Notes under the pieces: generated by a model
What the model was told of the DNA's origin: nothing
Seen by the model: the letters and a program-made list of their open reading frames with translations, nothing else
Databases searched by the model: none
Part shown: piece by piece, positions 8,480-34,713 of the stretch
How the letters are laid out: each line of letters starts with the position of its first letter
Numbering within the stretch: the stretch's first letter is position 1
Origin: Promethearchaeati archaeon SRVP18_Atabeyarchaeia-1
GTDB lineage: Archaea > Asgardarchaeota > Atabeyarchaeia > Atabeyarchaeales > Atabeyarchaeaceae
Reading direction: 5' to 3'
Assembly (NCBI GenBank): GCA_037308085.1
Contig: CP147779.1
Span: 2,304,001-2,368,000, forward strand
DNA length: 64,000 nucleotides
Made by a program: the position numbers and the translations under genes

Positions 8480-9181
8480 CTAATTGGTTTTCCGCTTCAG
8501 CTTCTCTTTGGTCAGTCTTCTATTGTCCTCAGCCAGTTTGAATGCGGGATCCATCTTCAGCGCGTTGTCATAGCACCGTATTGCCTCACTGAGATCACCG
8601 AGTTCGTCAAAGGCAACACCCATATTGTACCAAGCGTTGCTGTCTTGAGGCTCTATTTTGAGGGATTCATAGAGACTACTCGTTGCCTCTTTGAACCTGC
8701 CTAGCTTGTTGAGGAGCAGACCCCTGTCACGCCAGGCGTCGGCATTCTTTGGCTGCATTCTAGTCGCTTGGTCTAAACTTTCCATCGCTTGATCATACCA
8801 GCCAAGGCTAAACAGGGCACTGCCTTTGCCGTACAATGCTTTATCGTCTTTCGGGTTTGCTTTGAGCATGTGGTCGTAACACTCTAGTGCTTCGTTGAAG
8901 GAGCCACGCATAGCAAAGGCGACACCTTTGTTGTACCATGCGTCCTTGTTTTCCGGTTCTATTCTCAGCACTTGGTTGAAGCTGGCTATGGCTTCTTTCG
9001 TCATGCCAAGCTTCATGAGAGCAAGGCCTCTATGGTGCCAAGTGGTCGCGTCCACCGCCCTCAATTTGAGAGATCTGTCGAAGCATTCCAAGGCTTCTTT
9101 GAACCTGCCGAGTTTGCTGAACTCTATGCCATTCTTAAGCCACTCGGTAGCCTCTTTCTCCTGTCTGGACGATTCTGGCAA
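8480..9181 (-). CDS. Tetratricopeptide repeat protein
   Basis: About six 34-aa repeats (AWYNKG...EAL.C.D); TTG start at 9181 after GGAGG. Confidence 0.88.
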   Translation of the reverse strand: MPESSRQEKEATEWLKNGIEFSKLGRFKEALECFDRSLKLRAVDATTWHHRGLALMKLGMTKEAIASFNQVLRIEPENKDAWYNKGVAFAMRGSFNEALECYDHMLKANPKDDKALYGKGSALFSLGWYDQAMESLDQATRMQPKNADAWRDRGLLLNKLGRFKEATSSLYESLKIEPQDSNAWYNMGVAFDELGDLSEAIRCYDNALKMDPAFKLAEDNRRLTKEKLKRKTN

Positions 9182-9272
9182 GAATGCGCCTCCTGTAATT
9201 CGAGATCTTGTTGGGGTTCGCACTATCTCTGTATTGATGCCGTCGGCGAAGAGAATATTAATTAGTAGAGAA

Positions 9273-9800
9273 TCAGTCCTTAGTCTTGCGGGCTTTCTTA
9301 ATGCCTTCCCCCTGGTACCTTCCATTGTAGGCTGAACTCGCTTCCATCGCGTCTGTGACGACAAATTGGAACCAGCGCTCATTTTCCGCAATTCTCAGTT
9401 CCTTTATCGGTATGTAGACCGTCTGCACTCCGATGCCTTCGTAGCCGGGGTCGAAGACCGCCGTCTCAGACTTTATGACTCCAAGCCGGTTCAATGTGCT
9501 TCTCGGAAAGGAGAGCCCTATTGCATTGATCGGTATCCTGACGGCAACGTTGAGGCGAGCCTCATATACGCCTCGTTTGAGTGAGTACAACCCGTTCTGC
9601 GGCTTGCATGAGATTTTCGGCATATCCAGTTCTCTGCGCTCACCATCAAGTGTGGCGGTAGCATTGTCTTCTATTCGATCAACATTTGAGACCCCAATGT
9701 CGACTCCACAAGGGTTTATCTTTATTCCTTGCAGGCGATCCCTGTTCGCCTCTACCACCTTCAGAACCTCTTTGTAGATCCTTTGACCTGACCAGAACAT
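9273..9800 (-). CDS. dut: Archaeal-type trimeric dUTPase / dCTP deaminase family
   Basis: GVD, PRSTLNR, DPGYEG and YNGRYQG motifs. Confidence 0.8.
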   Translation of the reverse strand: MFWSGQRIYKEVLKVVEANRDRLQGIKINPCGVDIGVSNVDRIEDNATATLDGERRELDMPKISCKPQNGLYSLKRGVYEARLNVAVRIPINAIGLSFPRSTLNRLGVIKSETAVFDPGYEGIGVQTVYIPIKELRIAENERWFQFVVTDAMEASSAYNGRYQGEGIKKARKTKD

Positions 9801-12037: not shown

Positions 12038-12799
12038 TCAGGATTCCAGCGATGAAGGCAAGGACGCTCCTCTTGCTGGTATCACATTTATTCCTTTTTC
12101 AGTGATTACCATGGGACTTGTCTTGGACTCATGAAGAGTTCCTCTCATCTTGACCACTGTAAGTCCTCGTTCAAACTTTCCACCGTGCCTTATCTGTTCC
12201 AGAAAGATCACGCCATCAGATATGAACTCCTCCACGTCATAGCGGCTTATCTGCCCCTTCCCGCGCCCCTCCGATATCAGGAGGGTTGTGCAACCGAGTT
12301 CTTTCAACGTGGCGATCAGCCGGTGGATGGCGTGCCGTATCGCGCCAGGTTCTTCGATGACGAGTTCAAGCCCAGGTATTGAGTCGAGTACTGCCCTCTT
12401 AGCATTCGTCGTTTTCTGGAGTTGGCTTATAGCCAACAGTAGAGTGTTCATGTTCAGGAGGCGGGTGACTTCGTCTCTGCCAGCATATGGAACCCTCGAC
12501 TTGGGCGAAGCAATATCTATTATCCCCAGTTTGCCATCTTTCTCCAGCTTCTCCAGATCCCACCCAAAACCTTTCATATCAGCTCTGACTGCTGAAGGTG
12601 ACTCTTCAGTTGTAATAAGAATACCATTCTCTCCGAACTTAGTGACACCTTCGACCAAGAATTGGATGCCCAAAATACTCTTTCCCGTGCCACATCCTCC
12701 AGTGACCAGAATGCACCTTCCTCTTGGAAACCCCCCGTGCAGGAGTTCATCGAGTTGCCCGATTCCAGAAGAAACCAAATTGCCTACCGGTTCACTCAT
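12038..12799 (-). CDS. KaiC-like (RAD55) single-domain ATPase
   Basis: SSGIGQLDELLHGG, Walker A GGCGTGKS, TEE, VLDS, VEEFISDG, KMRG. Confidence 0.92.
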   Translation of the reverse strand: MSEPVGNLVSSGIGQLDELLHGGFPRGRCILVTGGCGTGKSILGIQFLVEGVTKFGENGILITTEESPSAVRADMKGFGWDLEKLEKDGKLGIIDIASPKSRVPYAGRDEVTRLLNMNTLLLAISQLQKTTNAKRAVLDSIPGLELVIEEPGAIRHAIHRLIATLKELGCTTLLISEGRGKGQISRYDVEEFISDGVIFLEQIRHGGKFERGLTVVKMRGTLHESKTSPMVITEKGINVIPARGASLPSSLES

Positions 12800-13152
12800 T
12801 GCTCGCACCTTCTGCCATAACACCTAATACTCGAAGCCCAGCGCCAAGGGAATACTCTCCTGACGCAGGCGAGTCCAGAATCTGTCAAAGAGCTCCTTTT
12901 TTCTGATTCTCCGCTGAAAGACATAATGGGGCAATCCCATATTTAAGCTGTGAATCGTTTTCAACGCCTCTCCTCCTAGCAACGAGGAGCCGGCGCGAAT
13001 ATTATTCGAAACCAGCCAGTTGCTGTTCCACACCTCGATTCCCATCATCTGGCGTATCCCACATATTTTGGCTTTCTTTCCTCATTTCATGTCAAGTTGC
13101 GCCATCGTTATTCTACTCGGTCGCCCTGTACTCGTCTCAGACTTATCGTGTT

Positions 13153-13869
13153 TCACTCCGTAGCCGGTTGTGAGAGCCCCTCTGTTCGCTGGATCTCGAA
13201 CAACAGATCACGCAAACTTGTAGAAGAGTAAGGTAGATTCAGACTGGTAGCGACAAGATTCAGACGGTCTAACAATACTTTCAGATTATGGGCTAGCGGG
13301 ATATCCAGCGCTTCGATAGTTTTCAGATCCATTTCGACAACCGGTTTCATCGCACCAACTATTTTCATGATCAAGTTATCTTGCTCTGATATAAGTGTAC
13401 CTTCCTGGGCGCTTTGCCCGCTATCTAGGTCCAGCAGCCTGCATGTCTCCGCAAAGATCTCCTTCGCGAAAGAATCATCAGGATTACAGCTATCTGCAAG
13501 TTTCGCGTTGAAGCCTGCTAAGAAATCTACTATCTCGTCGATCTTGTCAGACACTAGTTTTGGCGCTCTTATACTAAAGAAGACAATGAATGAATAGTAC
13601 CCGAGAGCCGGTAGGCTCCCAAGGGTTCCGAAGCCTATGGCCTCTATTTCGTCCATTGTTATCACTATGCCGGCTGTCTTTCCCTTCGTTGTGTTGAGTT
13701 GTATCATGGACTGCATTGCCAGCTGATTGGCTTGCGCCTCAGCGAGGAAACCTGCAGGGTACCTTGTTATAGGCGTCGGCCCAGATGAGAGGTCGAACCT
13801 GGAAATGAATACCCCTTTGACATATCTTGATGGGATCATGTTGGACGAGCTTGCTGCCAATTCCCTCAT
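13153..13869 (-). CDS. uDENN/longin-like domain protein
   Basis: N-terminal VFISRFDLSSGPTP..YP matches the F-D-x3-GP-x5-P start of uDENN longins. Confidence 0.6.
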   Translation of the reverse strand: MRELAASSSNMIPSRYVKGVFISRFDLSSGPTPITRYPAGFLAEAQANQLAMQSMIQLNTTKGKTAGIVITMDEIEAIGFGTLGSLPALGYYSFIVFFSIRAPKLVSDKIDEIVDFLAGFNAKLADSCNPDDSFAKEIFAETCRLLDLDSGQSAQEGTLISEQDNLIMKIVGAMKPVVEMDLKTIEALDIPLAHNLKVLLDRLNLVATSLNLPYSSTSLRDLLFEIQRTEGLSQPATE

Positions 13870-13968
13870 AACCTCTCATTTTTCATTGTGCATAATTCAT
13901 AACTGCCGTGAGCTTCTCTATCTTCCGAACGCGGGATTCTGCGTGGATCACTTTTCCCCTCGGCATTG

Positions 13969-14580
13969 TCAGTACTTTAGTTGAGCCTTTGACTCCTGAA
14001 GCACGGTTAGGAGCTGGGCGATTCGAGCCTTAGTCCCAGGCGCCACAAGTTCCAGTCTATTAAGATGTCCAGACTCAATGAAGGAGCTGATTGCAAGTAT
14101 CGTTTTGTCAGCAACCGCTTCTAACTTGTCACCGGGTTCGTTAAGAGCTTCCTCTTCATGAGACTTCTCGCAAACCCTTCGCACTCCTTCGAATAGCCTA
14201 AGTGCGGCATCTCCAGGGTGTCGCCTCACATTCTGCAACTCGCTTATTATGAGGCTTCTAATAAGGGGATACGTCTCCCAGATCATCGATTTAGCTTCTT
14301 CCCCAAACATCACTATTATCCCGGTAGCACCTTCAACGCTACTCCCCTCGGTCCCAACCACACCAACTTTGCCTATTTGGGAAAAAGACATAATTGAGCA
14401 GAGAGCCTCTTTCTTCCCTGTTGAGAGTAGCAACATGGCGTCCTCGGCGACATCCTTTAGCCCTTCGCCCGCGATGAATCCCTGTGGGTAGATAAAAGCC
14501 GGAGCTGGGCCCAGGAGCATGTCAAATCTGGTCACAATCACTCCCTCGAAAAGTAATCGCTCTGGTGACCTGCGCGACAA
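13969..14580 (-). CDS. uDENN/longin-like domain protein, paralog of 13153-13869
   Basis: VIVTRFDMLLGPAPAFIYP start, with a similar beta-alpha-beta order. Confidence 0.6.
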   Translation of the reverse strand: MSRRSPERLLFEGVIVTRFDMLLGPAPAFIYPQGFIAGEGLKDVAEDAMLLLSTGKKEALCSIMSFSQIGKVGVVGTEGSSVEGATGIIVMFGEEAKSMIWETYPLIRSLIISELQNVRRHPGDAALRLFEGVRRVCEKSHEEEALNEPGDKLEAVADKTILAISSFIESGHLNRLELVAPGTKARIAQLLTVLQESKAQLKY

Positions 14581-15005
14581 TCTGGTTAACCCCCATTACC
14601 CCATCGTGCGTGCACTGCTCGAACACCGTGTTCAGCTAGTAGAGTAGTTGAAGTTCCTTTTATTTTCTTCTTACTTATCTTCTACACAGAATTGTCTCTC
14701 CGGGCTCCCTCGATGGTTAAGCGCTGACACCGAGACTCAACCATAGAACACCACATCCGCGATAGCCCTTTTCTCGCCTCGACTAGAGAAATTGGAGTCT
14801 GGCAAACAAGCTCTGGCCTGACTTGGGTCGGGAAAGGCACATCAAGCGCTAGGATGACTATGCGCATTATTAAGTTCATTTGCCTATGAACATTGTGAGC
14901 ATCGAAAGCGAGGTACGTTGATAGACTGTGCCCTGCAGAAATGACAACATTTATGATGCAGTGCGTGGTTAGCAGAAACTGACATGAGGGGGTGTTCTTC
15001 TGTAA

Positions 15006-15539
15006 ATGCCCATAATCAAAATTCTGATAATGGGTCTGCCAGCGTCCGGCAAGACAACTTTCGTCAAGCATGTCTTTGAAGGAAAGGAATTGAACGATCT
15101 GAAGGACTACATTCCGACATATGGCGTGAATATAGCATTGTATAACTACAAGGGCTCGGAGGACATTAAGATCTCAACCTTCGATTGTGGTGGTCAGACA
15201 AGTTTTATCGACACCTATTTGACTGATCAATGGGTTCCCAGACTCTTCGCGGAAGTCTCGGCTCTTTTCTTCGTGGTAGATTCGTCATCGAAGAAGACTC
15301 TCAAGGATGCCAACAAGCTTTTCCACAAGTACCTTGAGAACGTATACAAGTATTCTGAAGACGTAGTGATCCATGTACTGGCATCAAAATGGGACAAACA
15401 TACCATCACAAGAGATGAACTCAAGGAAGCATTCTCGGATCTCGACGTTCGTCCCATATCCGTCGTCGACGGTTCAGCCAGACAGGTTACGCAGGCGATA
15501 ATGGACAGGCTAATCAGCGAAAGGAAGACGAAAAAGTGA
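15006..15539 (+). CDS. Small Ras-superfamily GTPase, Rag/Gtr1-like (Arf-related)
   Basis: G1 GLPASGKTT, G2 PT.G, G3 DCGGQ, G4 SKWD, G5 ISV. Confidence 0.85.
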   Translation: MPIIKILIMGLPASGKTTFVKHVFEGKELNDLKDYIPTYGVNIALYNYKGSEDIKISTFDCGGQTSFIDTYLTDQWVPRLFAEVSALFFVVDSSSKKTLKDANKLFHKYLENVYKYSEDVVIHVLASKWDKHTITRDELKEAFSDLDVRPISVVDGSARQVTQAIMDRLISERKTKK

Positions 15540-15609: not shown

Positions 15610-16362
15610 TTACCTTCGTCCCACCGTGAGCCTGCCAGTTCCACCGTTCCTCGATACTGGAATCCATTTGGACTCGAAGTTGGTCCTTCTCATCTTGGAT
15701 ATGCAGATCTCCTTGCTTATGAAGCCCTGTTGCTCTGCGTTTCTGAAGAGTATGACGGAATCGAGCAACTGCTGAAGAGAGGCCACAGTCTGCACGTCAT
15801 GCATTCCCTCCGTCAATATGAAGATCGAGGTTGAGTTTGACTCCTTGAGCTTGGCAACCATCACGGAAGCTAGTTGATAGACAGACTGGGGAGCCGCATT
15901 CATGAGCAATGACGACAGAATATCGACTGAAACCCTTATCCGCCTACCCCCTATCTTTTCGGTCGCTGTCGATACCGCGGCCGCTACGTGATTCAAATCC
16001 ATTGATGATCTTACAACCTTATCAATCACCTGAGGATAGGGAACATCAGTTGTCCGCCAACTGTAGCAATCAACGAACATTAGGCTGGACCTCTGCTCCT
16101 GCGTCAACTCGTCAAAGTCGAGGCCCACTTCCTGCCAACTCTCCTTGACTTCGTCAACAGATTCGTTTGAGAGAACCATCACTCCACCTTCACCAGCCCT
16201 CAACCCATCGGCTATGAATTGCAGGCAGAAAATGTGTTTCCAGCTTCCTGGAGGCCCGTACAGAAGAGTCGATGAACCCTGAGGTATTCCCCCCTCGATC
16301 AATGCATCAAGTCCTTCTATTCCTGAACTCATTCTTCTGCTCATTTCTCGCAGCTCCTCCAA
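15610..16362 (-). CDS. KaiC-like ATPase with degenerate Walker A
   Basis: SSGIEGLDALIEGG, GPPGSWKH in place of GxxGxGK[ST], KMRR. Confidence 0.85.
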   Translation of the reverse strand: MEELREMSRRMSSGIEGLDALIEGGIPQGSSTLLYGPPGSWKHIFCLQFIADGLRAGEGGVMVLSNESVDEVKESWQEVGLDFDELTQEQRSSLMFVDCYSWRTTDVPYPQVIDKVVRSSMDLNHVAAAVSTATEKIGGRRIRVSVDILSSLLMNAAPQSVYQLASVMVAKLKESNSTSIFILTEGMHDVQTVASLQQLLDSVILFRNAEQQGFISKEICISKMRRTNFESKWIPVSRNGGTGRLTVGRR

Positions 16363-16372
16363 GAGTTCCCTG

Positions 16373-16990
16373 CTAATGCTCCCATTCGTGTCCTGTCATT
16401 TCCAAGTTGTACCTAAACTCGCAGCATGAATCACCTTTCGCGGTGCACTTCGATTCGACGAAGCCCACCTTTCTTCCTAGGGAATGCTCCAAGGCACCCG
16501 CAATTACTCCTCCAGTAAAATAGCAGATACTCACTCCTATGTCCATAATCCCGCAACAGTCGGCACACTCTTCGACCTGATAAACCAACAGCTTGCCTTT
16601 CTCGAATTCAGTCAACGTCAAGAGACCGGTGCCAGTCGATTTGAATCCTGTCTGTAGCGCAGAGTACCCGGTTGAGAGTCTTGCCTCCTTGAGATTCTCA
16701 GCTTCAGCAAAATCACGGTAACCTGGGAGTTTCTGAAGCATTGGCATGCCTCCTTCTGTAAGTCCAATCCCAGTCTGCCTTCCAGCCTCGAAAAGCACGT
16801 GACCCATAGACTCAGCCAAGACCAGGGCTGCAAGCACTGGCCTCTGGTAAGTCAGTAGGTCAACTGAATCCCCAAGTTTCTCTCGGATCCTATCCTTGTA
16901 TCCTGGCGTGTGAAGCATTCTCTCAAGTTGCGCTTTCGTGAGTTCTCTAATGATCTCCTTCTCTCTCACAACACGTGCTCTCGTCGACAT
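16373..16990 (-). CDS. V4R domain protein (Bet3/TRAPP-like fold)
   Basis: REKLG, ECADC...C.F.GG.IAG and ESKC.AKGD.CCEF. Confidence 0.85.
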   Translation of the reverse strand: MSTRARVVREKEIIRELTKAQLERMLHTPGYKDRIREKLGDSVDLLTYQRPVLAALVLAESMGHVLFEAGRQTGIGLTEGGMPMLQKLPGYRDFAEAENLKEARLSTGYSALQTGFKSTGTGLLTLTEFEKGKLLVYQVEECADCCGIMDIGVSICYFTGGVIAGALEHSLGRKVGFVESKCTAKGDSCCEFRYNLEMTGHEWEH

Positions 16991-17040
16991 CTCTTAACTT
17001 TCTCCTCGCGCTCTCCTTTATTTCTTTCTTCATTGACAGA

Positions 17041-17634
17041 CTATACTGTATATCTGAATTCACAGTTTGGGTCACCTTTTGCGCAACACTTCGATTCAAC
17101 AAATCCTACTTTTCTGCCAAGAACGCCTTCTAGAGTGCCAGCGATATTTCCACCAAGGAAGTAACATACACTCTGTCCCAAGTCTCCGACTCCATAGCAT
17201 ATGGCACACTCTTCAACCTGAACCACAATCAGCTTGTTCTTCTCAAATTCGCTTAACGTTAGGAGACCCTGGCGAGTTGTTTCTGCAAAAATCTGAAGAG
17301 TCGTAAACTCATCTGAAAGCCTAGCCTCCTCCAAGTTATTGGCATCAGCAATGCTACGAAAACCCGGTTGTTTCCGTACCTCGGGCCACATTTCCTCGAG
17401 CATGTAGGTTGCGGGTCTCCTGCCTGCCTCAAAAAGGATTGGTCCCATAGACCTGCTGAGAGACAAGGCACCAAGCATGCGTTCCTGGTAGGATAATAGG
17501 TCAACCGAGTCCCCAAGTTTTTCACGAATTCCGATCTTGCTAGGTGAACTTAGCAATTTCTCAAACTGCATTCTTGCCATGGCCTTGAGGACCTTCTCGG
17601 CGATCGTGAGCAGACAACCTCCCCCAATAATCAA
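17041..17634 (-). CDS. V4R domain protein (Bet3/TRAPP-like fold)
   Basis: Paralog of its neighbours: ECAIC...CYFLGG.IAG and ESKCCAKGDPNCEF. Confidence 0.85.
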   Translation of the reverse strand: MIIGGGCLLTIAEKVLKAMARMQFEKLLSSPSKIGIREKLGDSVDLLSYQERMLGALSLSRSMGPILFEAGRRPATYMLEEMWPEVRKQPGFRSIADANNLEEARLSDEFTTLQIFAETTRQGLLTLSEFEKNKLIVVQVEECAICYGVGDLGQSVCYFLGGNIAGTLEGVLGRKVGFVESKCCAKGDPNCEFRYTV

Positions 17635-17663
17635 TCCAATCGATTAGCTATTAGCGTTGTATT

Positions 17664-18245
17664 TCATGAAATGCTACACCTGAATTCACAATAGGAATCT
17701 CCTTTAGCTTGGCATAGTGATTCGACGAAGCCGACGTTTTTTCCAATTACGACCTCCATTGCGCCAGCGAGCTGACCTCCGAGATAGTAACATACGCTTT
17801 CTCCGAGGTTAGGGAGCCCAGTGCAGGACACACATTCTTCAACTTGGAAAATGAGGAGTTTCCCTTTTTCGTATCTGACCATGTTTATAATCCCCGTACC
17901 AGTCATCTGATACATTGCTTGAACAATCGACCACTCAGTAGAGCGTTGGGCTTCCTGCAGCGTACTAGACTTATTGATACTCTGATAGTTTGGCAGCTTC
18001 TGTATCATGGATAGGGATTTCGTGGAGAGAGCCCTTCCAACTTTCTTTCCAGCTTCTGCTAGTACCGGTCCCATGGATTTGCTTAGAGCGAGTACTCCTA
18101 TCACGCGTTCTTGGTATGCCCACATGTCTATGAAATTGCCGAGCCTTTTGCGGAGCCTAGCGTTGACCTTTGGGTTCTCTATCAGTCTTTCAAACTGCCT
18201 TTCAGCTAACGCATCTAGAATATCGTCCGCTTTCAATTGAACCAC
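17664..18245 (-). CDS. V4R domain protein (Bet3/TRAPP-like fold)
   Basis: ECVSC...CYYLGG.LAG and ESLCQAKGDSYCEF. Confidence 0.85.
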   Translation of the reverse strand: MVQLKADDILDALAERQFERLIENPKVNARLRKRLGNFIDMWAYQERVIGVLALSKSMGPVLAEAGKKVGRALSTKSLSMIQKLPNYQSINKSSTLQEAQRSTEWSIVQAMYQMTGTGIINMVRYEKGKLLIFQVEECVSCTGLPNLGESVCYYLGGQLAGAMEVVIGKNVGFVESLCQAKGDSYCEFRCSIS

Positions 18246-18281: not shown

Positions 18282-18866
18282 CTAGCTTTCCCTAATCAAT
18301 CTGTTTAGATTCTCGATTTCCCTTCTATACTTGGTCCGCAGTTCTGGATCGTCTGCAAGATGTCCCCTGTTCTCGGCAGCTTTATTGATTAGATTAGTGA
18401 GTGAATCCTTCCGAGTCGTGAGTTCCGACGCGAGGAGTTTCGTTAGTCTCTGGCCCAGTCTTATGGGCGTCCTCACCGCGTCTTGGGTTTTGACTGGGGC
18501 GTAAGGTGGCTCACTGCTCTTCTGCGAGATAGGATCATCTTCACAAATCGCGGAATTTGGGAACTTGTCCATGTCGTTTTCAGCGAATGCATTCCTCACG
18601 TTCTCATGGAACCCCGAAGTACTATCCTCGTCGTGAGAAGCATCGACCAAAGCCGCGAAGATCAGTGATGGAGATTCGTTGAAGGCAGACTTTGAGGTTC
18701 CTGATGCCATGATTCTTATGTCAACGCCGCGAATCTCTTTCATGAACGCGATCATCGCCTTGAGGAGACCACTAACAAGGTAGCAGTTCACAAGTGTCGT
18801 CCTGAAACCCTCATGGTAGATGCAGATTCCATTCTTCTCTGAGACAACGCATGGTCCATGGGTCAT
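18282..18866 (-). CDS. Longin-like domain protein
   Basis: G.CIY followed by the LVSGLL.A...F..EI helix typical of Asgard-type longins. Confidence 0.55.
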   Translation of the reverse strand: MTHGPCVVSEKNGICIYHEGFRTTLVNCYLVSGLLKAMIAFMKEIRGVDIRIMASGTSKSAFNESPSLIFAALVDASHDEDSTSGFHENVRNAFAENDMDKFPNSAICEDDPISQKSSEPPYAPVKTQDAVRTPIRLGQRLTKLLASELTTRKDSLTNLINKAAENRGHLADDPELRTKYRREIENLNRLIRES

Positions 18867-19693: not shown

Positions 19694-20509
19694 ATGATAA
19701 AAGCGGTTTGGATCCTATTGGACATCGGCCCGTGCCTGTACAGGTACGCTGCAGAGAAGCGATTCCAGGAGACAGATGAGAATCTCTTCTCAGGTTTCTT
19801 TGTTGCTTTGGAGACCTTCGCAAAAAGCATTGGCAGCGAGGAAGTCTTGAGAGTCGAACTGAGAGACTTGGCTCTTTGGTTCATGAAGGAAGCCAACGTC
19901 GTCTTCGTTGTGGCATCCGACAGAAGCGAGGATATGACTGAGATTCTGTTGAAGGTCAGTCGAGTGTTCAGTGAGGCTGCTCCAGATCTCCGTGCCCCTT
20001 TCTATAATCCACTTATCTCATCTGATGTGGCGGCACTCGAACAGAGGATTGATTCCAAAATCAGGGAGGTAATTCTATCACCAGTACCACCAGTTGGGGG
20101 GCTTGCCGAACAACTTGCCAAGGTAAAGGATGCGGTGACTTCGGCACTGCGCAAACCTCGCCCAGCCAAGCAGTCTGTCATAGCTGTGCAGGCTATCAGG
20201 CCAATTGAGGAGACAATTCCAGAACCCACTGAACCCAAGACAACTCAGCAACATGTTAGAGTGACGGGGGAGATGATTCCGAAACTGGAAAGGCCCCTAA
20301 CAGATGTTCTTAGAGAGAGGGAAAGACTCGTCAAGCGCTTCGGGGTTGCAGCGGTAGACATATTACATCATGCTGATGGCAAAATGACAGTGAGCGAAAT
20401 AGTAGCGGCGTCGAAGGCAGAGAAGAGTACGATTGAGGACGTTCTGAGTTTTGCTCAGAAGTTGGGGATTGTTGAATTCAAACAGAAAAAGCAGTATGCA
20501 AGCCCCTGA
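19694..20509 (+). CDS. Longin domain protein with C-terminal winged helix
   Basis: MIKAVWIL..G.CLY...DENLFSGFF.A..F longin, Pro-rich linker, then ILHHADGKMTVSEIV...LGIV wHTH. Confidence 0.7.
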   Translation: MIKAVWILLDIGPCLYRYAAEKRFQETDENLFSGFFVALETFAKSIGSEEVLRVELRDLALWFMKEANVVFVVASDRSEDMTEILLKVSRVFSEAAPDLRAPFYNPLISSDVAALEQRIDSKIREVILSPVPPVGGLAEQLAKVKDAVTSALRKPRPAKQSVIAVQAIRPIEETIPEPTEPKTTQQHVRVTGEMIPKLERPLTDVLRERERLVKRFGVAAVDILHHADGKMTVSEIVAASKAEKSTIEDVLSFAQKLGIVEFKQKKQYASP

Positions 20510-20930: not shown

Positions 20931-21914
20931 TCATGCCTTCCATTTCTTTATGGTTACCCTTGTTCCTCTGCCGACCTCAGTTTCGATGCTGAACTCATCC
21001 ATGAGACGCTTCGCGCCACCAAGCCCTATTCCCAGACCCCTCTTGGTGCTGAAACCACCTTCGAGGGCCTTCTCAACATCTGCGATCCCAGGTCCGCTAT
21101 CGTCTGCAATTATCACGATGCCCACTCTGTCACCCTCCTCAATGGGTTTAATGGCTATCCTACCGGCTCCATGAGCATGAGCCACGATGTTCTTTGCGAG
21201 TTCAGAAGTCGAGATTGCAATCTTGCTTTGGTCGGCTTCCGAGAAGCCTAGTTTCTTCGCCAGGTCCTCCGCTTTCTCAGCCGCGGTCATTGCACGGGCA
21301 TCACTTGAGGCATCCACCCCTTCAACAATGGATCCGAATTCCTCCTCGTTCTCAACCGCGATGGCTATGGTGGCATCATCGTTTCTATTCCCCCATTCGT
21401 CCAGGATTCTTTCAGCAACGAATTGTGGTTGTTCGTAGGCCAGGGGATAATCGGATAAACTAAACCGCCCGGAAACCCCATCTGAATAAAGAACTACCGC
21501 TCTGAGTGTGTCGTATGTGTATCCGAATTTCATAATCTTCCTAGCATTTACTCCGAGTATACCATCTAGCGAGGTAGGATGCATCGGGGGCTCGGCAACT
21601 ATTGATACATCGACATTCCCAATGCCACAAAAAATGAGTCGGTGTGCAGTTCTATCAATCCTTACTGCCCCTGCGACCACGCCTCTCGTCCCACGTAAAT
21701 GGGTATGAAGACTTGAAACGATCTGTTCGACGTCTCTCGTGTGATTCTCTAACACATATTGTCTTGCCTTAGTAGACGCAACCGCTGCTTCTTCCCCGTG
21801 ACCGAGTCCGTCTATTACGACGAGAAGCGTCTGCCCATTCCATTCCTTTACGAGATAATCGTCACCATTTGTATTCTGGTCTAATGCCGGTCTGGATGCA
21901 ATACCTAATTTCAA
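20931..21914 (-). CDS. rsbX: RsbX-like PP2C phosphatase fused to a C-terminal RsbT-like kinase
   Basis: NGD, IDGLGHG, GIGN, SDG and DDAT phosphatase motifs, followed by ELAKN, DSGPGI and GLGIGL GHKL kinase motifs. Confidence 0.85.
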   Translation of the reverse strand: MKLGIASRPALDQNTNGDDYLVKEWNGQTLLVVIDGLGHGEEAAVASTKARQYVLENHTRDVEQIVSSLHTHLRGTRGVVAGAVRIDRTAHRLIFCGIGNVDVSIVAEPPMHPTSLDGILGVNARKIMKFGYTYDTLRAVVLYSDGVSGRFSLSDYPLAYEQPQFVAERILDEWGNRNDDATIAIAVENEEEFGSIVEGVDASSDARAMTAAEKAEDLAKKLGFSEADQSKIAISTSELAKNIVAHAHGAGRIAIKPIEEGDRVGIVIIADDSGPGIADVEKALEGGFSTKRGLGIGLGGAKRLMDEFSIETEVGRGTRVTIKKWKA

Positions 21915-22117
21915 GCGTTCTTCACACCCACTACGAGTTTCCTGCCGTCGGACGAGCTCATTCCTAAACTGTCACCTGTATTGTTGCCTGCTTACGAGAA
22001 TGGGTTCTGGATTCCATACCTCAAGTCCATGATCCCTGTCAATTATCTTTTACCGGGGTGAAGAGGAGATCTCTCGGCTTCCGAGCTCGAAGGAAGTTAT
22101 CTCCAGCTCTCCCTACT

Positions 22118-23074
22118 CTATTGTTTCTTGCTCAGCCTCAGCCCGAGTTTCTCGTACGCGTATTCTAGTCCTTCTCGCAACGTCCTGCGTGTCACGATGC
22201 CCTGCAGTTCCACACCGAGCTCCACTAGCGTAGCTGCCACATCCGGCCTAACCCCCGCGATGATCATCTCTGAGCCCATCAACCTCACGGCTTGGATCGT
22301 GCGCAGAATATGATTGGCTGCCTTCGTGTCAATCGCTGCGATGCCGCTAATATCCATAATGACGATCTCACTCTTAGCTCGTACAATGTACTCCAAGACA
22401 GATTCAGTGAACTGCCTCGCACGAGCAGAATCAAGAATACCTATCAGCGGCAGCATCACAATGCTCTCCCAGACCTCAACGATAGGAGTAGAGAGTCTTC
22501 TGATCATCTCGTCCCTTTCCTTGAGTTCATCCATGTTCCTTTTGGCTTTAATCTCCATCCGATTGCGCATTAACGCTTCGACGATGCTCACGGAGAGGGT
22601 CTCCACAGCCCCCTGATCAGTGGGATCATAGCCTGACTCCTTGTTGGCCAAAGCAATCATACCGATCGTCTTACCAGCATATTTCAACGGGACGCCCAGG
22701 AAAGAGGCTATCGGTGGATGCCCTTTAGGAGTTCCAACCCAATCGGGGTGTGTCGAAGGGTCATTGGTTATCATAGATCTCTCATCTTTCAGTACTCTCC
22801 CCCAGATCCCCCGGATCTCCAAGTTCCTAAGCAACCTCGCGGCTTCCGATCCCGGCATCCTACACTCAGCCCAACCTGGGTCACTCAAAGCAATACAGTC
22901 ATAACGACCAACTTGATTCACTTCACCTATGAAACCGAACTTGCTACCGGTCAAGCTCTCGGCAACGGCAAGGCAGGTCTTGCAGAGTTGCTCTTCTGTT
23001 TCACATGTCAACGTTTCCCTGAGAATCCTGTTTACCCCCTCCAGAATGTCGCTCCTATCAATGTCTTTTCTCAC
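22118..23074 (-). CDS. GAF-STAS protein (RsbR paralog)
   Basis: GAF domain (P.GHPPI..FLGVPL, LANK) plus STAS domain (LSTPI, PLIGILDS.RA, DISG...IDT). Confidence 0.88.
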   Translation of the reverse strand: MRKDIDRSDILEGVNRILRETLTCETEEQLCKTCLAVAESLTGSKFGFIGEVNQVGRYDCIALSDPGWAECRMPGSEAARLLRNLEIRGIWGRVLKDERSMITNDPSTHPDWVGTPKGHPPIASFLGVPLKYAGKTIGMIALANKESGYDPTDQGAVETLSVSIVEALMRNRMEIKAKRNMDELKERDEMIRRLSTPIVEVWESIVMLPLIGILDSARARQFTESVLEYIVRAKSEIVIMDISGIAAIDTKAANHILRTIQAVRLMGSEMIIAGVRPDVAATLVELGVELQGIVTRRTLREGLEYAYEKLGLRLSKKQ

Positions 23075-23204
23075 CTCTTTCTCACCACCCTAGTTCTATC
23101 AGAAATCCGGTCTGAGAAACAATCCAAGCTTCTTTCCATAATCAGATCACGTTGCCACAAAACCGCGACAGAAGTCTGGGAGCAGTATGAAATCCGAAGC
23201 ACCC

Positions 23205-23609
23205 TCATAACCACTTTCTTATCGTTACTTCAGTACCTTCTCCGACCTTGGTCTTGATGTCGAACTCATTCATTAGTTTCTTGCTGCCTGAGAGGCCCAT
23301 GCCCAGCCCTCTGCTTGTGCTGTGACCCCCTTTCAGGGCCGATTCGAGATCTCTTATACCAGGTCCGTGATCCTCGACAACAATCTCTATTCCACGTCTT
23401 CCTTGTCTGTCGACCGGTCTGATCGTCACCATCCCCTTGCCTGCGTACTGGAAGGCGTTTCTGGCAAGCTCGGATACTGCGGTTGCTATCCTCGTTTGGT
23501 CCATGTAGTTGAACCCCATGGCTTCCGCTATCGCCTTCGCCTTGACTCTAGCTATCACTATATCAGCCTCGCTCGTGACTTCTAAGGCCACAATCGACAC
23601 CTGCACCAT
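23205..23609 (-). CDS. rsbT: Stressosome serine/threonine kinase RsbT
   Basis: DIVIAR, ATAVSELARN, D.GPGI, GLGMGLSG.KKLM.EF, KW. Confidence 0.92.
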   Translation of the reverse strand: MVQVSIVALEVTSEADIVIARVKAKAIAEAMGFNYMDQTRIATAVSELARNAFQYAGKGMVTIRPVDRQGRRGIEIVVEDHGPGIRDLESALKGGHSTSRGLGMGLSGSKKLMNEFDIKTKVGEGTEVTIRKWL

Positions 23610-23611
23610 AG

Positions 23612-23986
23612 TTACGGTCTCCCTGCCTGACGAAGGATCTCCATACCTTTCTCAAGATCTCTCGCTGTGTGAACTTTTTCTAGCGAGAACCCCATTTCCA
23701 CCAGCGTCATCGCAACGTCGGGTCTTAGACCGGTAATTACAACTTGGGCGCCCATTATATTCGCAGCTGTCGCGATCTCACCTATTTGTCGCACAAGGAA
23801 GCTGTCCACAATATCTATCGCGCTCACGTCGAGGACAAGCCCTTTCGCCTTCGTTTCGACGATTCTCTGAAGTATTTCATCTTTGTACTTCACAGCCAGT
23901 CTGTCATGGAGCGGCACCTGCGGAGAGGTGATTAGAAATTCTCCTGACTTCAAGATTGGAATGGTAACTTTCTCCAAACCTATCAT
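23612..23986 (-). CDS. rsbS: Stressosome STAS protein RsbS
   Basis: IPILK, LHD, IVDSF (phospho-Ser site), G.RP.VA.TLVEMG. Confidence 0.92.
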   Translation of the reverse strand: MIGLEKVTIPILKSGEFLITSPQVPLHDRLAVKYKDEILQRIVETKAKGLVLDVSAIDIVDSFLVRQIGEIATAANIMGAQVVITGLRPDVAMTLVEMGFSLEKVHTARDLEKGMEILRQAGRP

Positions 23987-24828
23987 CTCGCACTAGTCCT
24001 AGTCAGTTTCAATCCCAGCTTCGCGTATGCATACTCAAGCCCATCTCTCAACGTGCTACGCGAAACGATGCCCGATAAGTCGATGCCAAGCGTCACGAGA
24101 GTTACTGCGACATCAGGTCTAATACCAGTAACCACGACCTCTGAACCCATTAGTCTCACAGCTTGTATTGTCCGAAGGATGTGACTGGCCACCTTTGTAT
24201 CGATCGCGGTGATGCCACTGATGTCCATGACGACGACTTCTGTCTTTGATCGCATTATGTTCTCCAGAATCAACTCAGTGAGCTGCTTTGCACGAGAAGA
24301 ATCAAGAATCCCTATCAGAGGTACCATCGCGATGCCTTCCCAAGCGCTGACGATAGGTATGAGCAGTCTCAGGCCCATCTCTTGTTGCTTGATGACGGAT
24401 TCCTTTTCGGTGACGAATGCGGAGGCTACAATGTTCAGGATTTTGCGTGCCACTGGCTCGTAGACGGCAATAACCGCACTGCACGTTTCTGGGTCTTTAT
24501 AGTTATTTTCAAAGATGAACCGACCGTACAGGTCTCTCAGAATCAGGAAGCCTGCGATTATCTGCTCAACCGTCATCGATGCCAGAACTCCTTTCTTAGC
24601 AACATTCGCTGCATATCTTTGGGCTGATTCGTATGATCCAGTCTTCAAGCACAATAGGCATTCGTTGTAGATCGCTCTCGACTCCTCCTCTATCTCCCTG
24701 GGGGAGAGGGACACGAGTAGACCAGATTGTCGCATTTCATTGATCCACCGCGACCTGATCTCGTCTGCATTCTGCTCCAGCAGATTACTTAAAGTCCTTA
24801 CAAGTTCCTGGCTATTCTTCTTCGACAT
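23983..24828 (-). CDS. rsbR: Stressosome sensor/co-antagonist RsbR
   Basis: Helical N-terminal domain plus STAS domain with LDS.RA and IDT.VA phosphosites; overlaps the rsbS start. Confidence 0.9.
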   Translation of the reverse strand: MSKKNSQELVRTLSNLLEQNADEIRSRWINEMRQSGLLVSLSPREIEEESRAIYNECLLCLKTGSYESAQRYAANVAKKGVLASMTVEQIIAGFLILRDLYGRFIFENNYKDPETCSAVIAVYEPVARKILNIVASAFVTEKESVIKQQEMGLRLLIPIVSAWEGIAMVPLIGILDSSRAKQLTELILENIMRSKTEVVVMDISGITAIDTKVASHILRTIQAVRLMGSEVVVTGIRPDVAVTLVTLGIDLSGIVSRSTLRDGLEYAYAKLGLKLTRTSAR

Positions 24829-24980: not shown

Positions 24981-25544
24981 TCATAGTCTGATCACCTCAT
25001 CGCAGAATTGTCTTACCGTCGAGAGGACATTCCCTTCAACTGAACCCTCAACCGCGAAAATCGCACCGTCAAACCCGAGAACCCTAAGACGGCCAACCAG
25101 GAAGTGAAGGAAATGAAGCAGCGCGCCCGAGCTATTGTAGACTAATAGAGTTGAGAGTGAGTCGATTAATAGCCATGAGTCATCTCTCTTGCAGTTTAGT
25201 AGTTCGACAGCCTTCTCGAAAGCCATCTGCGTGGCTGACAACTCAGAGGGTGATGCTACGTTGAGGCTACCTTTCACCTCACTAGACCCGACACTCTTCG
25301 ACACGAGATCTATGACGTAGGTTTTCTCAGTCTCAAGAGACTCTCTTAGGTCAAACCCGTAGACCCTCAGCTTTTCGACAAGATCCTTTGTCGACCTATT
25401 TGAGGAGACGTAGATCCCTTTATCATCCTGCCTATACCTTAAGAAGTCTGCCACAATCTTCATCGGGTTCTCACTGACAGGAACCTCCAGTAGCACGACG
25501 GACTTGGGCACAACGCGTTTAAGCCTGTCCTCAAGTTTCACCAT
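24981..25544 (-). CDS. Inactive KaiC/RecA-fold protein
   Basis: Lacks Walker A but keeps GIYVS, ID.VS, LIDSLSTLL.YN and FCDEVI. Confidence 0.75.
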   Translation of the reverse strand: MVKLEDRLKRVVPKSVVLLEVPVSENPMKIVADFLRYRQDDKGIYVSSNRSTKDLVEKLRVYGFDLRESLETEKTYVIDLVSKSVGSSEVKGSLNVASPSELSATQMAFEKAVELLNCKRDDSWLLIDSLSTLLVYNSSGALLHFLHFLVGRLRVLGFDGAIFAVEGSVEGNVLSTVRQFCDEVIRL

Positions 25545-29800: not shown

Positions 29801-30375
29801 TTTGATTTCGCCTTATGCGTGTCGACGTGCTTCTTAATTGCGTCCGTAATCATGTTCTTCGTAACTTCGGTTTCCTGCTTGAGTTTCTCCAGCATCTCAG
29901 CGATGCTCTTCGAAGAGTTCTGCTCGTATAGCTCTATTTCACCTTTTGTTTGACCCACGCTTGATCTTGCAGTTTGCAGGGCCTCTTTCTTCCACTCCTC
30001 GCAGTTCTGGCTAACAGCTGCCAAGGTGGAATCAATAGTGCTTGTTGTGTTCGCCCCTATGTTCTTGGCAATCTTCTGAAAGTCCTTAAGAAAAGCCACG
30101 AACCCCGCATAAGGAGGTATGGCTGCATATCGGTCGACCACACTGGGGATCCGCCTGATCAACCGCTCATTTTCTAACTCAACCATCGCTTTCGATGTCA
30201 ACACGAAACCCAAACCACTCTTAGTTGAGATCTCTCCGGCTGTCATAGGACCGATGCTGAGAAGAACCCTGAGCGCATCTGTCGCCGGGTCGGAGATGCC
30301 CATTGCTTCCTTCAAGATCTGATTAAATAACACGCCTTCTTCTCCAACAGTCTTTGCCTGCGTCTCCTTTGCCAT
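26887..30375 (-). CDS. TrmB-like wHTH, ~900-aa amphipathic helical region and TrmB-type C-terminal domain
   Basis: N-terminal GPMTAGEIS..SG...L...RLI...RY.AIPP; long low-Pro helical middle; C-terminal D.EEILFAP. Confidence 0.75.
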   Translation of the reverse strand: MAKETQAKTVGEEGVLFNQILKEAMGISDPATDALRVLLSIGPMTAGEISTKSGLGFVLTSKAMVELENERLIRRIPSVVDRYAAIPPYAGFVAFLKDFQKIAKNIGANTTSTIDSTLAAVSQNCEEWKKEALQTARSSVGQTKGEIELYEQNSSKSIAEMLEKLKQETEVTKNMITDAIKKHVDTHKAKSNEAEAELASGIGNVTTKFDTAAKNYLKEATDVTSSFLESYKGGVQTFLGTVNTDLQEYKTQSRENLTLLENEIASIQGKLEEKERATIVAVKARSSETLENQRKTFGEKSLEVQSNIREVTDRFMKSASSNLSKLKSSVDETTKSFTAELTRLLAEFKEKTATSVGKWWFMYKADVNESAQLVSRSLDILVNSAIREGDKISSTAQTMVESVAAKTKPSFEELRARVEEVYSSGLANLTGAASAIKGTLSGTITSHISSCQLTTSFLESILSTIIPGCNNALGTVVSDIERNLQKMSIALGKKNDALLSGLSQKAESKVSSYFPALEKEMNGIVERILASVPSIPIAENPARVSTKKSPGAARKTSITSEVREVLKGFEKRVTDELRKYLKEEVATAHRSFEEEITGIQTDVVAAPSTNIKNARLELQKGEVVAASLLPRFADYSSSVGSFENLVLDMIDVSAKQYAGESEIARKALADLYAKQIASLTRIQKQLIESANAQHALHTKEISDLAAETHASLEAALAKHLDQLDGHIQRGKSNLQQLVVQTSKNSDGARSLIQSNVNKLVSSTFATSKEITETTTNSIRGAMAAVTGEFDNLAAALQRDLTSFSGQAMEEIKNLVEASTTRVSESKENLSGQIEQLTGKTVKELNDVSNKQINTMVDTTSTICTSLTKLTNTSLGEFKSEAAGAKERFQRVISSHLQDYEQEAFGAAGTCGYLLSRSYERYREISMVNEKNLQETMLTHQTRFENSMTNTDSTLIGYIDKNEALLKEETRKSLANLSESIDKLRKTSASVEWVLQSAWMELEKSPMFGGEKSWPVVTKVALMSHVQDMIKRTKSHIMIMLPTVSEAPLEEIPKVKKATRVTLVVGETKGDEKEMQTLAEIAKMGNVSLRASADLSCYGCSKDSEEILFAPMAQKDTELVGLVSIGEPYIELFEKILTPALLGSSYDLKESAKPQTAPKKSEK

Positions 30376-32400: not shown

Positions 32401-32859
32401 GTGTCAAAGAAAGGCGCTGATGAGAAATCAGACAAGAGGGGTGGAGTTACCTATCTTCTGTGTGTAGCGATTATTGGATACGATGAGCAAAATGATAAGC
32501 CTGTGTTAAAGGCAAGCTACCCTGAATTTGATCTCAGTGAAGGCACCCTAAGCGGCGTATATTCTCTCTCATCTTTCACCGGAAACGAGCCAGGCTTCAT
32601 CTCGCTTGGGGTTGACGAAGGCGTAGTGATGAGTTATTACACTGGCGTCCTAGAGCCTATGCGCTGCCGGCCTCATTGTCTGGTTCTCTTCCTCGATAAA
32701 CCAGACAAACCCGAAAGATACAGGCAACTTCTGACTAAGCTGGGGTCTGTAGTCTTTCCCCTTCTCTGTGATAGAGACTTCAAGGAGTTTGTTAGGAAAC
32801 TCTACGAGGCGGCGTCACTGACAGGTGAACTCAGATCAAAGCGTTCCTATTACGCATGA
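32401..32859 (+). CDS. uDENN/longin-like domain protein
   Basis: AIIGYDEQNDKPVLKASYP start, with YYTG and a following hydrophobic strand. Confidence 0.5.
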   Translation: MSKKGADEKSDKRGGVTYLLCVAIIGYDEQNDKPVLKASYPEFDLSEGTLSGVYSLSSFTGNEPGFISLGVDEGVVMSYYTGVLEPMRCRPHCLVLFLDKPDKPERYRQLLTKLGSVVFPLLCDRDFKEFVRKLYEAASLTGELRSKRSYYA

Positions 32860-33303: not shown

Positions 33304-33307
33304 CACA

Positions 33308-34173: not shown

Positions 34174-34713
34174 ATGCCTACTATAATCAAACTAATAATA
34201 ATGGGTCTACCGTCGTCGGGGAAGACAACGTTCGTCAAACACATATTCGAAGAGAAGGAATTCAAGGGGATCGAAGACTACAAGCCGACGTTTGGCGTAG
34301 GCATATCTCTTTACGAGTATAAGGGTTCAGAAGGCATGATGGTCTCCACGTTTGACTGTGGGGGTCAGACAAGTTTCATTGACACATATATGACTGACCA
34401 ATGGGTTCCGACCCTCTTCGGAAAAGTCGCCATATTCTTTTTCCTTGTCGACTCCTCAGCAAGAGATAACCTGGATAGTGCCGCTAAGCTCTTTCGCAAG
34501 TACTATGAGAATCTTAGGAGGAATTCAAGCGCCGCAAAGGCATATGTACTGGCATCAAAATGGGACAAGCATCAAGTCATGCTTGACGAGTTGAGTCCGT
34601 TTTTCAAAGAGATCGACATATACCCAGTATCGGTCATAGACGGATCAGCTCGGAAAGTGTTCGAAGAGATAATGCATAACCTAATAGAGGAAAGAAAAGC
34701 GCAAGCAGATTAG
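34174..34713 (+). CDS. Small Ras-superfamily GTPase, Rag/Gtr1-like; close paralog of 15006-15539
   Basis: GLPSSGKTT, FDCGGQTSFIDTY.TDQWVP, SKWD. Confidence 0.85.
   Translation: MPTIIKLIIMGLPSSGKTTFVKHIFEEKEFKGIEDYKPTFGVGISLYEYKGSEGMMVSTFDCGGQTSFIDTYMTDQWVPTLFGKVAIFFFLVDSSARDNLDSAAKLFRKYYENLRRNSSAAKAYVLASKWDKHQVMLDELSPFFKEIDIYPVSVIDGSARKVFEEIMHNLIEERKAQAD

What the first reader, a model, noticed from the sequence alone, without database searches (positions are those of the whole stretch)
13153..15539. Tandem uDENN pair divergent from a RagA-like GTPase: possible ancestral GAP module
Seen: two paralogs begin with FISRFDLSSGPTP and VTRFDMLLGPAP, head-to-head with a GTPase carrying DCGGQ. Known (from memory): SMCR8, C9orf72, NPRL2 and FLCN begin with a similar F/W-x4-GP strand-turn and work as longin heterodimer GAPs, and WDCGGQ is the RagA/Gtr1 G3 motif. 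Inference: a minimal archaeal GATOR1- or C9orf72-SMCR8-like heterodimer acting on the adjacent GTPase.
Basis: partly seen in the sequence, partly recalled or inferred. Interest (0 to 1): 0.8.

Follow-up and report, generated by a model that had tools for sequence, protein, structure and literature searches.

The report
Arginine-less Asgard longin gene pair
Two neighbouring genes in an Asgard archaeon encode relatives of the eukaryotic nutrient-signalling GTPase activators (GATOR1, folliculin, C9orf72-SMCR8), but both lack the catalytic arginine and travel more faithfully with a KaiC-like ATPase gene than with the GTPase next door, so they are probably a non-catalytic adaptor pair rather than the ancestral activator.

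Summary
Two paralogous GP-motif longin genes (A 13153-13869, B 13969-14580, minus strand) lie head-to-head with a Rag-like GTPase (15006-15539) in a complete Atabeyarchaeia genome. Both fold as longins closest to Lst4, C9orf72, FNIP2 and NPRL2. A heterodimer gets weak model support (0.59 against 0.00).

The 'ancestral GAP module' reading fails three tests:
(1) Neither protein has the arginine finger. The beta4-beta5 loop is about 4 residues short, with no conserved Arg in 13 A and 13 B orthologues. Longer Asgard GP-longins keep an Arg-Gly there, and those are already published as GAP candidates (PMC12290439).
(2) There is no cDENN/dDENN, only a helical hairpin.
(3) The head-to-head layout belongs to one clade and was lost again within it.

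B-A adjacency is 13/13 loci. The same KaiC-like ATPase follows A in 10/12, and any small GTPase is adjacent in 6/11. Arg-less relatives in Baldrarchaeia and one other Asgard family also abut different KaiC-like ATPases.

Best reading: a lineage-restricted, non-catalytic longin heterodimer acting as an adaptor in a KaiC/small-GTPase signalling network. An Arg-independent GAP or GEF remains possible. New variant of a known kind; moderate interest.

The parts
13153..13869 (-). Protein A, 238 aa: GP-motif longin domain (about residues 14-150) plus C-terminal three-helix region (155-231); no arginine finger
13969..14580 (-). Protein B, 203 aa: paralogous GP-motif longin domain (about 9-142) plus C-terminal helical hairpin (149-201); no arginine finger
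13771..13809 (-). F-D-x3-G-P motif region of A (F25, D26, G30, P31 near-invariant; same spacing as C9orf72 W33-D34 and G38-P39)
14500..14535 (-). F-D-x3-G-P motif region of B (F19, D20, G24, P25 near-invariant)
13600..13617 (-). Short beta4-beta5 loop of A (residues 85-90), where Arg-bearing relatives have Arg-Gly; here Leu-Gly
14329..14349 (-). Short beta4-beta5 loop of B (residues 78-84), no Arg, variable among orthologues
15006..15539 (+). Rag-like small GTPase G1, 177 aa, G domain only; DCGGQ at 15183-15197; no conserved Arg in switch I
14581..15005 (.). 425-bp spacer between the divergent B and G1 genes; no sigma70-type hit (the scan does not cover archaeal promoters)
12038..12823 (-). 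Single-domain KaiC-like ATPase with intact Walker A, directly downstream of A; its orthologue follows A in 10 of 12 informative loci (probable start ATG at 12796)
15610..16362 (-). KaiC-like protein with degenerate Walker A, convergent with G1; directly upstream of B in the two relatives that lack G1 here
16373..18245 (-). Three tandem V4R-type genes (two with Pfam V4R hits here); linked to the pair only in the window's clade
34174..34713 (+). Second Rag-like GTPase G2 (60% identical to G1), behind a longin-like gene, a thioredoxin/KaiB-like gene and a KaiC-like ATPase; the same order is kept in the other complete Atabeyarchaeia genome

Best explanation
A and B are a duplicated pair of Arg-less GP-motif longins that form an A:B heterodimer. 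The join is probably the usual side-by-side longin interface (helix alpha1 and strand beta3), possibly clamped by their C-terminal helical hairpins. The dimer is a non-catalytic platform (a pseudo-GAP). It keeps the docking face of the GAP-longin family (F-D-x3-G-P motif and a conserved first helix) but cannot supply a catalytic Arg. It works as an adaptor in a cytosolic signalling network whose most constant member is the KaiC-like ATPase encoded just downstream. It may also dock a small GTPase without speeding hydrolysis. Shown: the folds, the missing Arg, the absent DENN lobes and the gene linkage. Weakly supported by a model: the heterodimer. Inferred only: the interface, binding to the KaiC-like ATPase, and binding to any GTPase.
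For: Longin folds: Z 14.1 and 14.4 to a Loki longin, 9.5-11.4 to Lst4, C9orf72, FNIP2, FLCN and GATOR1 subunits. No conserved Arg in the beta4-beta5 loop of 13 A and 13 B orthologues. Six further Asgard homologues fetched without looking at that loop all have Arg-Gly. B lies directly upstream of A in 13/13 loci, and A and B are separate clades (100/98 each), so both are kept. Complex model: ipSAE 0.59, best of 3 controls 0.00, runs agree in at least 88% of contacts, partner pLDDT at least 77. That mark was reached by 58 of 80 solved and 2 of 110 mismatched pairs, but at 0.60 or under by only 7 of the 80 and by both mismatches, so it is weak; it may also reflect likeness to solved longin heterodimers. 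The same KaiC orthologue follows A in 10/12 loci across three chromosomal settings. One exception has IS-like genes directly before the KaiC gene. Arg-less relatives abut non-orthologous KaiC-like ATPases in Baldrarchaeia and family f7, against a background of about 15-30 KaiC-family matches per genome. Conserved residues cluster in the motif, helix alpha1 and beta3/beta4; alpha1 and beta3 are the dimer and GTPase face of longin platforms (PMC3747258).
Against: No physical link between a longin and a KaiC-like ATPase is known to me, and none was found in the literature searched. The A-KaiC gap is 120-360 bp, so co-transcription is not shown. Two other families with Arg-less relatives (f5, f8) show no adjacent KaiC gene. 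Signalling genes cluster in these genomes, which inflates any neighbour count, and the loci are related, not independent. Small GTPases sit beside the pair in three different layouts, and close structural relatives are fused to Rab-like GTPases, which favours a GTPase client.
Confidence: 0.45

Rival explanations
1. Arg-independent regulator of the Rag-like GTPase. The A:B dimer binds switch I/II of G1 (or G2) and acts as an allosteric GAP or a GEF, perhaps standing in for the C-terminal domain that these short Rag-like GTPases lack.
For: A small GTPase is adjacent in 6/11 loci in three layouts: head-to-head G1 (window, L022, L027, L093), tail-to-tail G1 (G001), co-directional Rab-like (L083). 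That is well above the roughly 0.7% of genes that are small GTPases. Loki relatives are fused to Rab-like domains. The F-D pair matches C9orf72 W33-D34, which is needed for GAP activity on ARF1 (PMC8213707). G1 and G2 lack the C-terminal extension that the Baldrarchaeia relative has (308 aa). Longin and roadblock dimers are general GTPase platforms.
Against: Five loci keep the pair with no GTPase beside it. Two of them lost G1 from inside the head-to-head clade, and in the other complete genome G1 is about 48 kb away. G1 and G2 have no conserved switch-I Arg that an MglB-type GAP could reposition (MglA mechanism from my own knowledge). The clients would be two unrelated GTPase types.
Confidence: 0.25
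2. One reading: a canonical Arg-finger longin GAP heterodimer (minimal GATOR1 or C9orf72-SMCR8) acting on the adjacent Rag-like GTPase and ancestral to the eukaryotic complexes.
For: Fold, GP motif, tandem paralogues, Rag-like neighbour, and weak heterodimer support.
Against: No Arg in the beta4-beta5 loop, which is about 4 residues shorter than in Arg-bearing homologues. The only near-invariant Arg residues (B R108, R128) lie on the two helices of the opposite face. No DENN lobes. The pair was found only in Atabeyarchaeia; Arg-bearing forms are widespread elsewhere.
Confidence: 0.05
3. No dedicated module. A and B are a tandem duplication whose products act separately (monomers or homodimers), and their neighbours reflect general clustering of signalling genes.
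For: Tandem duplicates often stay adjacent. The best structural match, 8yqg, is titled a dimer of one Loki longin. Relatives in f5 occur singly. The window is a dense signalling island.
Against: A and B have diverged to about 22-31% identity, yet each keeps its own near-invariant residues, and the order B-A survives relocation to at least four chromosomal settings. The complex model gives weak support for A:B.
Confidence: 0.15
4. TRAPP-like exchange platform: a longin heterodimer flanked by the V4R (TRAPPC3-related) proteins of the island, acting as a GEF for a small GTPase.
For: V4R genes lie two to three genes from B in the window, L022, L025, L027 and L082. TRAPP is a longin heterodimer flanked by TRAPPC3-type subunits, which probably share ancestry with V4R (PMC10933270).
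Against: No V4R genes near the pair in G001, G002, L026, L097 or L083. TRAPP longins lack the GP motif and score lower (Z 8.4-8.7) than the GAP-type longins.
Confidence: 0.1

Closest known systems
Asgard GP-motif longins (Novak Vanclova, Jackson and Dacks 2025, PMC12290439)
   Same: Same superfamily: GP motif, longin fold, and profile-profile match to Arg-bearing Asgard members at 99.1% probability, E 5.5e-19.
   Different: The published members carry the arginine finger; these do not. These are short (203-238 aa), come as a fixed tandem pair and sit beside a KaiC-like ATPase. The paper gives no genomic context or partner.
Eukaryotic longin GAP heterodimers: GATOR1 (NPRL2-NPRL3), FLCN-FNIP, C9orf72-SMCR8
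   Same: Longin fold (Z 9.5-11.4), GP motif, F/W-D pair, and probably a longin-longin heterodimer.
   Different: No catalytic Arg in either subunit, so both resemble the non-catalytic C9orf72-type half. No cDENN/dDENN. Orthology was not tested, as no eukaryotic sequences were available for the tree.
Lokiarchaeia-type longin-Rab fusion proteins (about 350 aa; GTPase-longin fusions noted in PMC10933270)
   Same: Top structural look-alike of B in the ESM Atlas (TM 0.67); homologous longin domain.
   Different: They have a longer beta4-beta5 loop with Arg-Gly and a fused Rab-like domain. None was detected in this genome.
Rag/Gtr GTPases
   Same: G1 has the Gtr1/RagA-type G domain and DCGGQ.
   Different: 177 aa, without the C-terminal roadblock domain by which Rags pair.
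MglA-MglB (roadblock dimer, Arg-independent GAP)
   Same: Precedent for a platform dimer that regulates a GTPase without giving an Arg (indirect GAP).
   Different: Longin rather than roadblock topology; G1 has no conserved intrinsic Arg in switch I.
Archaeal KaiC-like ATPase signalling hubs (Makarova, Galperin and Koonin 2017; reference seen, text not held, content from memory)
   Same: The island has active and degenerate KaiC-like proteins with V4R and STAS-domain genes.
   Different: A GP-longin partner was not found in the literature searched.

Membership tests
Longin-domain GAP complexes (GATOR1, FLCN-FNIP, C9orf72-SMCR8) | N-terminal longin (uDENN) fold in both subunits | tested here: met
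   AlphaFold2 models (mean pLDDT 78 and 80) and VIA-align: Z 14.1 (rmsd 2.8, 133 aligned) and 14.4 (rmsd 2.3, 129 aligned) to 8yqg; 10-11 to Lst4, C9orf72-SMCR8, FLCN-FNIP2 and GATOR1 chains
Longin-domain GAP complexes (GATOR1, FLCN-FNIP, C9orf72-SMCR8) | GP motif at the beta1-beta2 turn | tested here: met
   Near-invariant in A and B; aligns with NPRL2; motif defined in PMC12290439
Longin-domain GAP complexes (GATOR1, FLCN-FNIP, C9orf72-SMCR8) | Catalytic arginine finger in one subunit (beta4-beta5 loop) | tested here: not met
   0/13 A and 0/13 B orthologues have Arg at the Arg-Gly position, and the loop is about 4 residues shorter. The position was assigned by sequence alignment to Arg-bearing Asgard homologues, by the loop location given in bioRxiv 10.64898/2026.01.05.697756, and by NPRL2 numbering (Arg78 from my own knowledge). 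No residue-level structural superposition was available.
Longin-domain GAP complexes (GATOR1, FLCN-FNIP, C9orf72-SMCR8) | Longin-longin heterodimer | tested here: inconclusive
   Weak support: ipSAE 0.59 against 0.00, no interface given; 13/13 gene adjacency
Longin-domain GAP complexes (GATOR1, FLCN-FNIP, C9orf72-SMCR8) | GAP activity on a Rag or Arf GTPase | not testable with these tools
   Needs an assay
DENN-module proteins | cDENN (alpha/beta) and dDENN lobes after the longin | tested here: not met
   The proteins end 55-85 residues after the longin, and the models have only helices there
Asgard GP-motif longins (PMC12290439) | Homology and GP motif | tested here: met
   hhalign 99.1%; A and B are the only matches of that profile at E<=0.001 in this genome
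Asgard GP-motif longins (PMC12290439) | Arginine finger in the same arrangement | tested here: not met
Rag/Gtr GTPases (for G1) | Gtr1/RagA-type G domain | tested here: met
   PF04670 E 4e-22, above Arf at 3e-17; best PDB hits Gtr1 and RagA. No tree was built.
Rag/Gtr GTPases (for G1) | C-terminal roadblock domain for Rag pairing | tested here: not met
   177 aa; homologues are nearly all 169-191 aa
MglB-type indirect GAP | Client GTPase carries its own catalytic Arg in switch I | tested here: not met
   No conserved Arg before the switch-I Thr in 16 G1/G2 sequences
TRAPP-like GEF core | Longin heterodimer assembled with TRAPPC3/V4R subunits | tested here: inconclusive
   V4R genes are linked in one clade only; binding not tested

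The most novel reading that the evidence does not exclude
The Arg-less A:B longin heterodimer physically couples a KaiC-like ATPase to a Rag-like GTPase that has only its G domain. That would join an archaeal RecA-family signalling hub to a eukaryote-type small-GTPase switch, a wiring not found in the literature searched. The longin-KaiC-GTPase gene order recurs around the second Rag-like GTPase of the window, and Arg-less longins abut KaiC-like ATPases in three Asgard families.
Probability: 0.2. Interest if true: 0.7.

Novelty: new variant of a known kind. Interest (0 to 1): 0.4.

Why it matters
Whether Asgard GP-longins are GAPs, and for which GTPases, is an open question posed in PMC12290439, and operons rarely reveal partners in Asgard genomes (PMC10933270). 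This locus shows that the family split into an Arg-bearing branch and an Arg-less short branch. The Arg-bearing branch is often fused to Rab-like GTPases and is the right target for an ancestral-GAP assay. The Arg-less pair is a natural negative control, and a small soluble test of whether non-catalytic, C9orf72/FNIP-like halves existed in archaea. If the KaiC link is physical, it would connect two signalling systems that are studied separately. If not, this is one more lineage-specific Asgard longin duplication.

Tried and rejected
Pfam scans of A, B and 34 family members gave no longin/DENN family. The NPR2 and Folliculin models found nothing in the genome. Foldseek gave no match at E<=0.001; its best rows were GATOR1 subunits at about 3e-3.

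Two scans of metagenome contigs confirmed no relatives, so contexts came from exact look-ups and genome searches. No RNA holder was listed, which says nothing on expression. The sigma70 promoter scan was at chance level and does not apply to archaea.

The one complex job went to A:B, so neither GTPase nor KaiC binding was modelled. Eukaryotic NPRL2, FLCN and SMCR8 sequences could not be fetched, so there is no tree with them and no residue-level superposition. A and B as sister clades has only 82/79 support, and test_one_clade was not run. One row of the GTPase alignment (L074) was mis-cut and was ignored. Three papers were not held.

Rejected: that A or B uses another conserved Arg. A R36 is not kept in deeper orthologues, and B R108/R128 lie on the opposite face. 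Also rejected: that head-to-head order is the ancestral state of the family, and that the proteins are DENN-module proteins.
Full report
1. Observation. The three ORFs and motifs are as described. A (13153-13869, minus, 238 aa) and B (13969-14580, minus, 203 aa) are paralogues at 31% over 102 aa, and are each other's only significant match among 10,342 ORFs of the genome. G1 (15006-15539, plus, 177 aa) is best matched by Gtr1_RagA (E 4e-22) and by Gtr1/RagA structures, but it is a bare G domain. A second copy, G2 (60% identical), lies at 34174-34713. The genome is one contig of 2,808,651 bp, the length of a complete Atabeyarchaeia genome; the relative G002 has the length of the other one (PMC11291895).

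2. Fold. Neither protein has a Pfam hit. AlphaFold2 models give the longin order (two strands, helix, three strands, two helices) followed only by helices. VIA-align ranks a Lokiarchaeota longin first (Z 14.1 and 14.4), then Lst4, C9orf72-SMCR8, FLCN-FNIP2 and GATOR1 chains (Z 9.5-11.4), above DENND1, TRAPP and SNARE longins. The ESM Atlas points the same way. A family profile aligns with human NPRL2 residues 7-72, GP motif included (E 9e-4). So 'longin of the GAP type' is right. 'DENN' is not: there is no room and no strand content for cDENN/dDENN.

3. Prior art. The GP motif of C9orf72, SMCR8, FLCN and NPRL2, and its presence together with an arginine finger in Asgard longins, was published in 2025, with the suggestion that they may be GAPs for Asgard Rag or ArfR GTPases (PMC12290439). 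What can be new is this pair and its context.

4. The arginine finger. In eukaryotic longin GAPs one subunit gives a catalytic Arg, and mutating it abolishes activity. In DENN-type GAPs it lies between strands beta4 and beta5. Profile searches retrieved longer Asgard homologues, many fused to Rab-like domains, with Arg-Gly in that loop. I picked the first 15 partly on that feature. Six more, fetched from Freyarchaeia and two other families without looking at the loop, all have it too. Against these, A and B lack about four residues and have no Arg there. In 13 orthologues of each, none has Arg at that position; scattered Arg residues elsewhere in the loop are not conserved. The only near-invariant Arg residues, B R108 and R128, sit on the two helices that form the face opposite the GTPase-binding helix. 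G1 and G2 have no conserved switch-I Arg either. Both subunits do keep F-D-x3-G-P, matching C9orf72 W33-D34, a GTPase-contact pair. They look like two non-catalytic halves. Caveat: the position is assigned by sequence alignment, not by superposition. A and B are the only members of this group detected in this complete genome.

5. Heterodimer. B lies directly upstream of A in all 13 loci with both genes in view, although the loci were fetched with one gene only. A and B are separate, well-supported clades. The complex model scored 0.59 against a best control of 0.00, with at least 88% contact agreement and partner pLDDT at least 77. That mark was reached by 58 of 80 solved complexes and 2 of 110 mismatches, but at 0.60 or under by only 7 of the 80 and by both mismatches. 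It is weak and may reflect likeness to solved longin dimers.

6. Which neighbour is constant? The same single-domain KaiC-like ATPase follows A in 10 of 12 informative loci, in three chromosomal settings, including the deepest branch, L083. Of the two exceptions, G001 has that KaiC gene on another contig with IS-like genes directly before it. A small GTPase is adjacent in 6 of 11: head-to-head G1 in four, tail-to-tail G1 in G001, and an unrelated Rab-like gene in L083. The four head-to-head loci belong to one clade (100/100). L025 and L082 nest inside it (99/99) and lack G1 there while keeping the rest, so the layout arose once and was lost once. In G002, G1 is about 48 kb from the pair, beside genes that flank the island here. 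Outside Atabeyarchaeia, short Arg-less relatives occur in Baldrarchaeia, Asgardarchaeia and two unnamed families. In Baldrarchaeia two of them flank a double-domain KaiC/GvpD-like ATPase; in family f7 one directly follows two KaiC-like genes. These ATPases are not close to each other. None of these relatives directly abuts a GTPase gene. KaiC-family matches number about 15-30 per genome and small GTPases about 18, so both associations exceed simple chance. However, the loci are kin and signalling genes cluster, so no formal test is claimed.

7. Ancestry. The A/B pair was found only in Atabeyarchaeia among 301 genomes searched. Paralogues of other lineages group apart from A and B (97/94), and A+B sisterhood itself is weak (82/79). 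The Arg-bearing form is widespread, including in the sister lineage. The simplest inference is loss of the Arg loop and a lineage-restricted duplication. Orthology to the eukaryotic subunit pairs was not tested.

8. Mechanism. Best supported (0.45): a non-catalytic longin heterodimer acting as an adaptor, most tightly tied to the KaiC-like ATPase and perhaps docking a small GTPase. Fold, missing Arg and linkage are shown; the dimer is weakly modelled; partners are inferred. Rivals: Arg-independent GAP or GEF for G1 (0.25), no dedicated module (0.15), TRAPP-like platform with V4R proteins (0.10), canonical Arg-finger GAP (0.05). It works like a longin platform. It is not a member of the longin GAP complexes, since a defining feature was tested and not met.

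9. Verdict. The feature is real and the family is known, but this variant and its context were not found in the literature searched. New variant of a known kind; interest 0.4. The better candidates for an ancestral GAP are the Arg-bearing homologues found along the way.

Noticed in passing
L042, L045, L048, L049, L053, L056, L057, L101 (family f9 and others; probably Lokiarchaeia): Proteins of about 350-420 aa fuse a GP-longin with an intact Arg-Gly loop to a Rab-like GTPase domain; the profile finds 3-9 matches per f9 genome. They are candidates for self-contained or mutual GAP-GTPase units and better tests of the ancestral-GAP idea.
   Followed up: partly
L098:7091-10396 (G037, 3,576,204 bp, Freyarchaeia): Three tandem Arg-bearing GP-longin genes (372, 375, 166 aa) with no GTPase next to them.
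   Followed up: partly
window 32401-34713: Longin-like gene (related to a 130-aa Asgard family), thioredoxin/KaiB-like gene, KaiC-like ATPase and second Rag-like GTPase in a row; the same order is kept in G002.
   Followed up: partly
window 20931-24828: Stressosome-like cluster: GAF-STAS and STAS proteins (RsbR/RsbS-like), an RsbT-like kinase and a phosphatase-kinase fusion.
   Followed up: no
window 26887-30375 (-): 1162-aa protein with an N-terminal TrmB-type HTH and a long helical repeat body; conserved beside the island in relatives and beside G1 in G002.
   Followed up: no
window 18282-18866 (-) and 19694-20509 (+): Two further genes that look longin-like by eye, the second with a C-terminal winged helix; a homologue of the second follows the KaiC gene in L026, L097 and G001.
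   Followed up: no
window 15610-16362 and 24981-25544: KaiC-like proteins with degenerate or missing Walker A (DUF7504-like), probably inactive partners.
   Followed up: no
L074:1093-2019 (Baldrarchaeia G029): A Rag-like GTPase 45% identical to G1 but with an extra C-terminal domain of about 130 aa that looks roadblock-like; the fold was not tested.
   Followed up: partly
L102:1738-3676 (G001): IS-like gene pair (TnpB-like and small resolvase-like, IS607 type by my reading) directly before the KaiC orthologue, where B-A stand in L026, L097 and G002.
   Followed up: partly
L016 and L085: In Asgardarchaeia-type genomes the single Arg-less longin is convergent with a 300-aa gene without Pfam hits, next to or near RNase HII.
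   Followed up: no
window 8480-9391 and 34829-36133: Two TPR-repeat genes (recognised by eye) near the ends of the signalling island.
   Followed up: no
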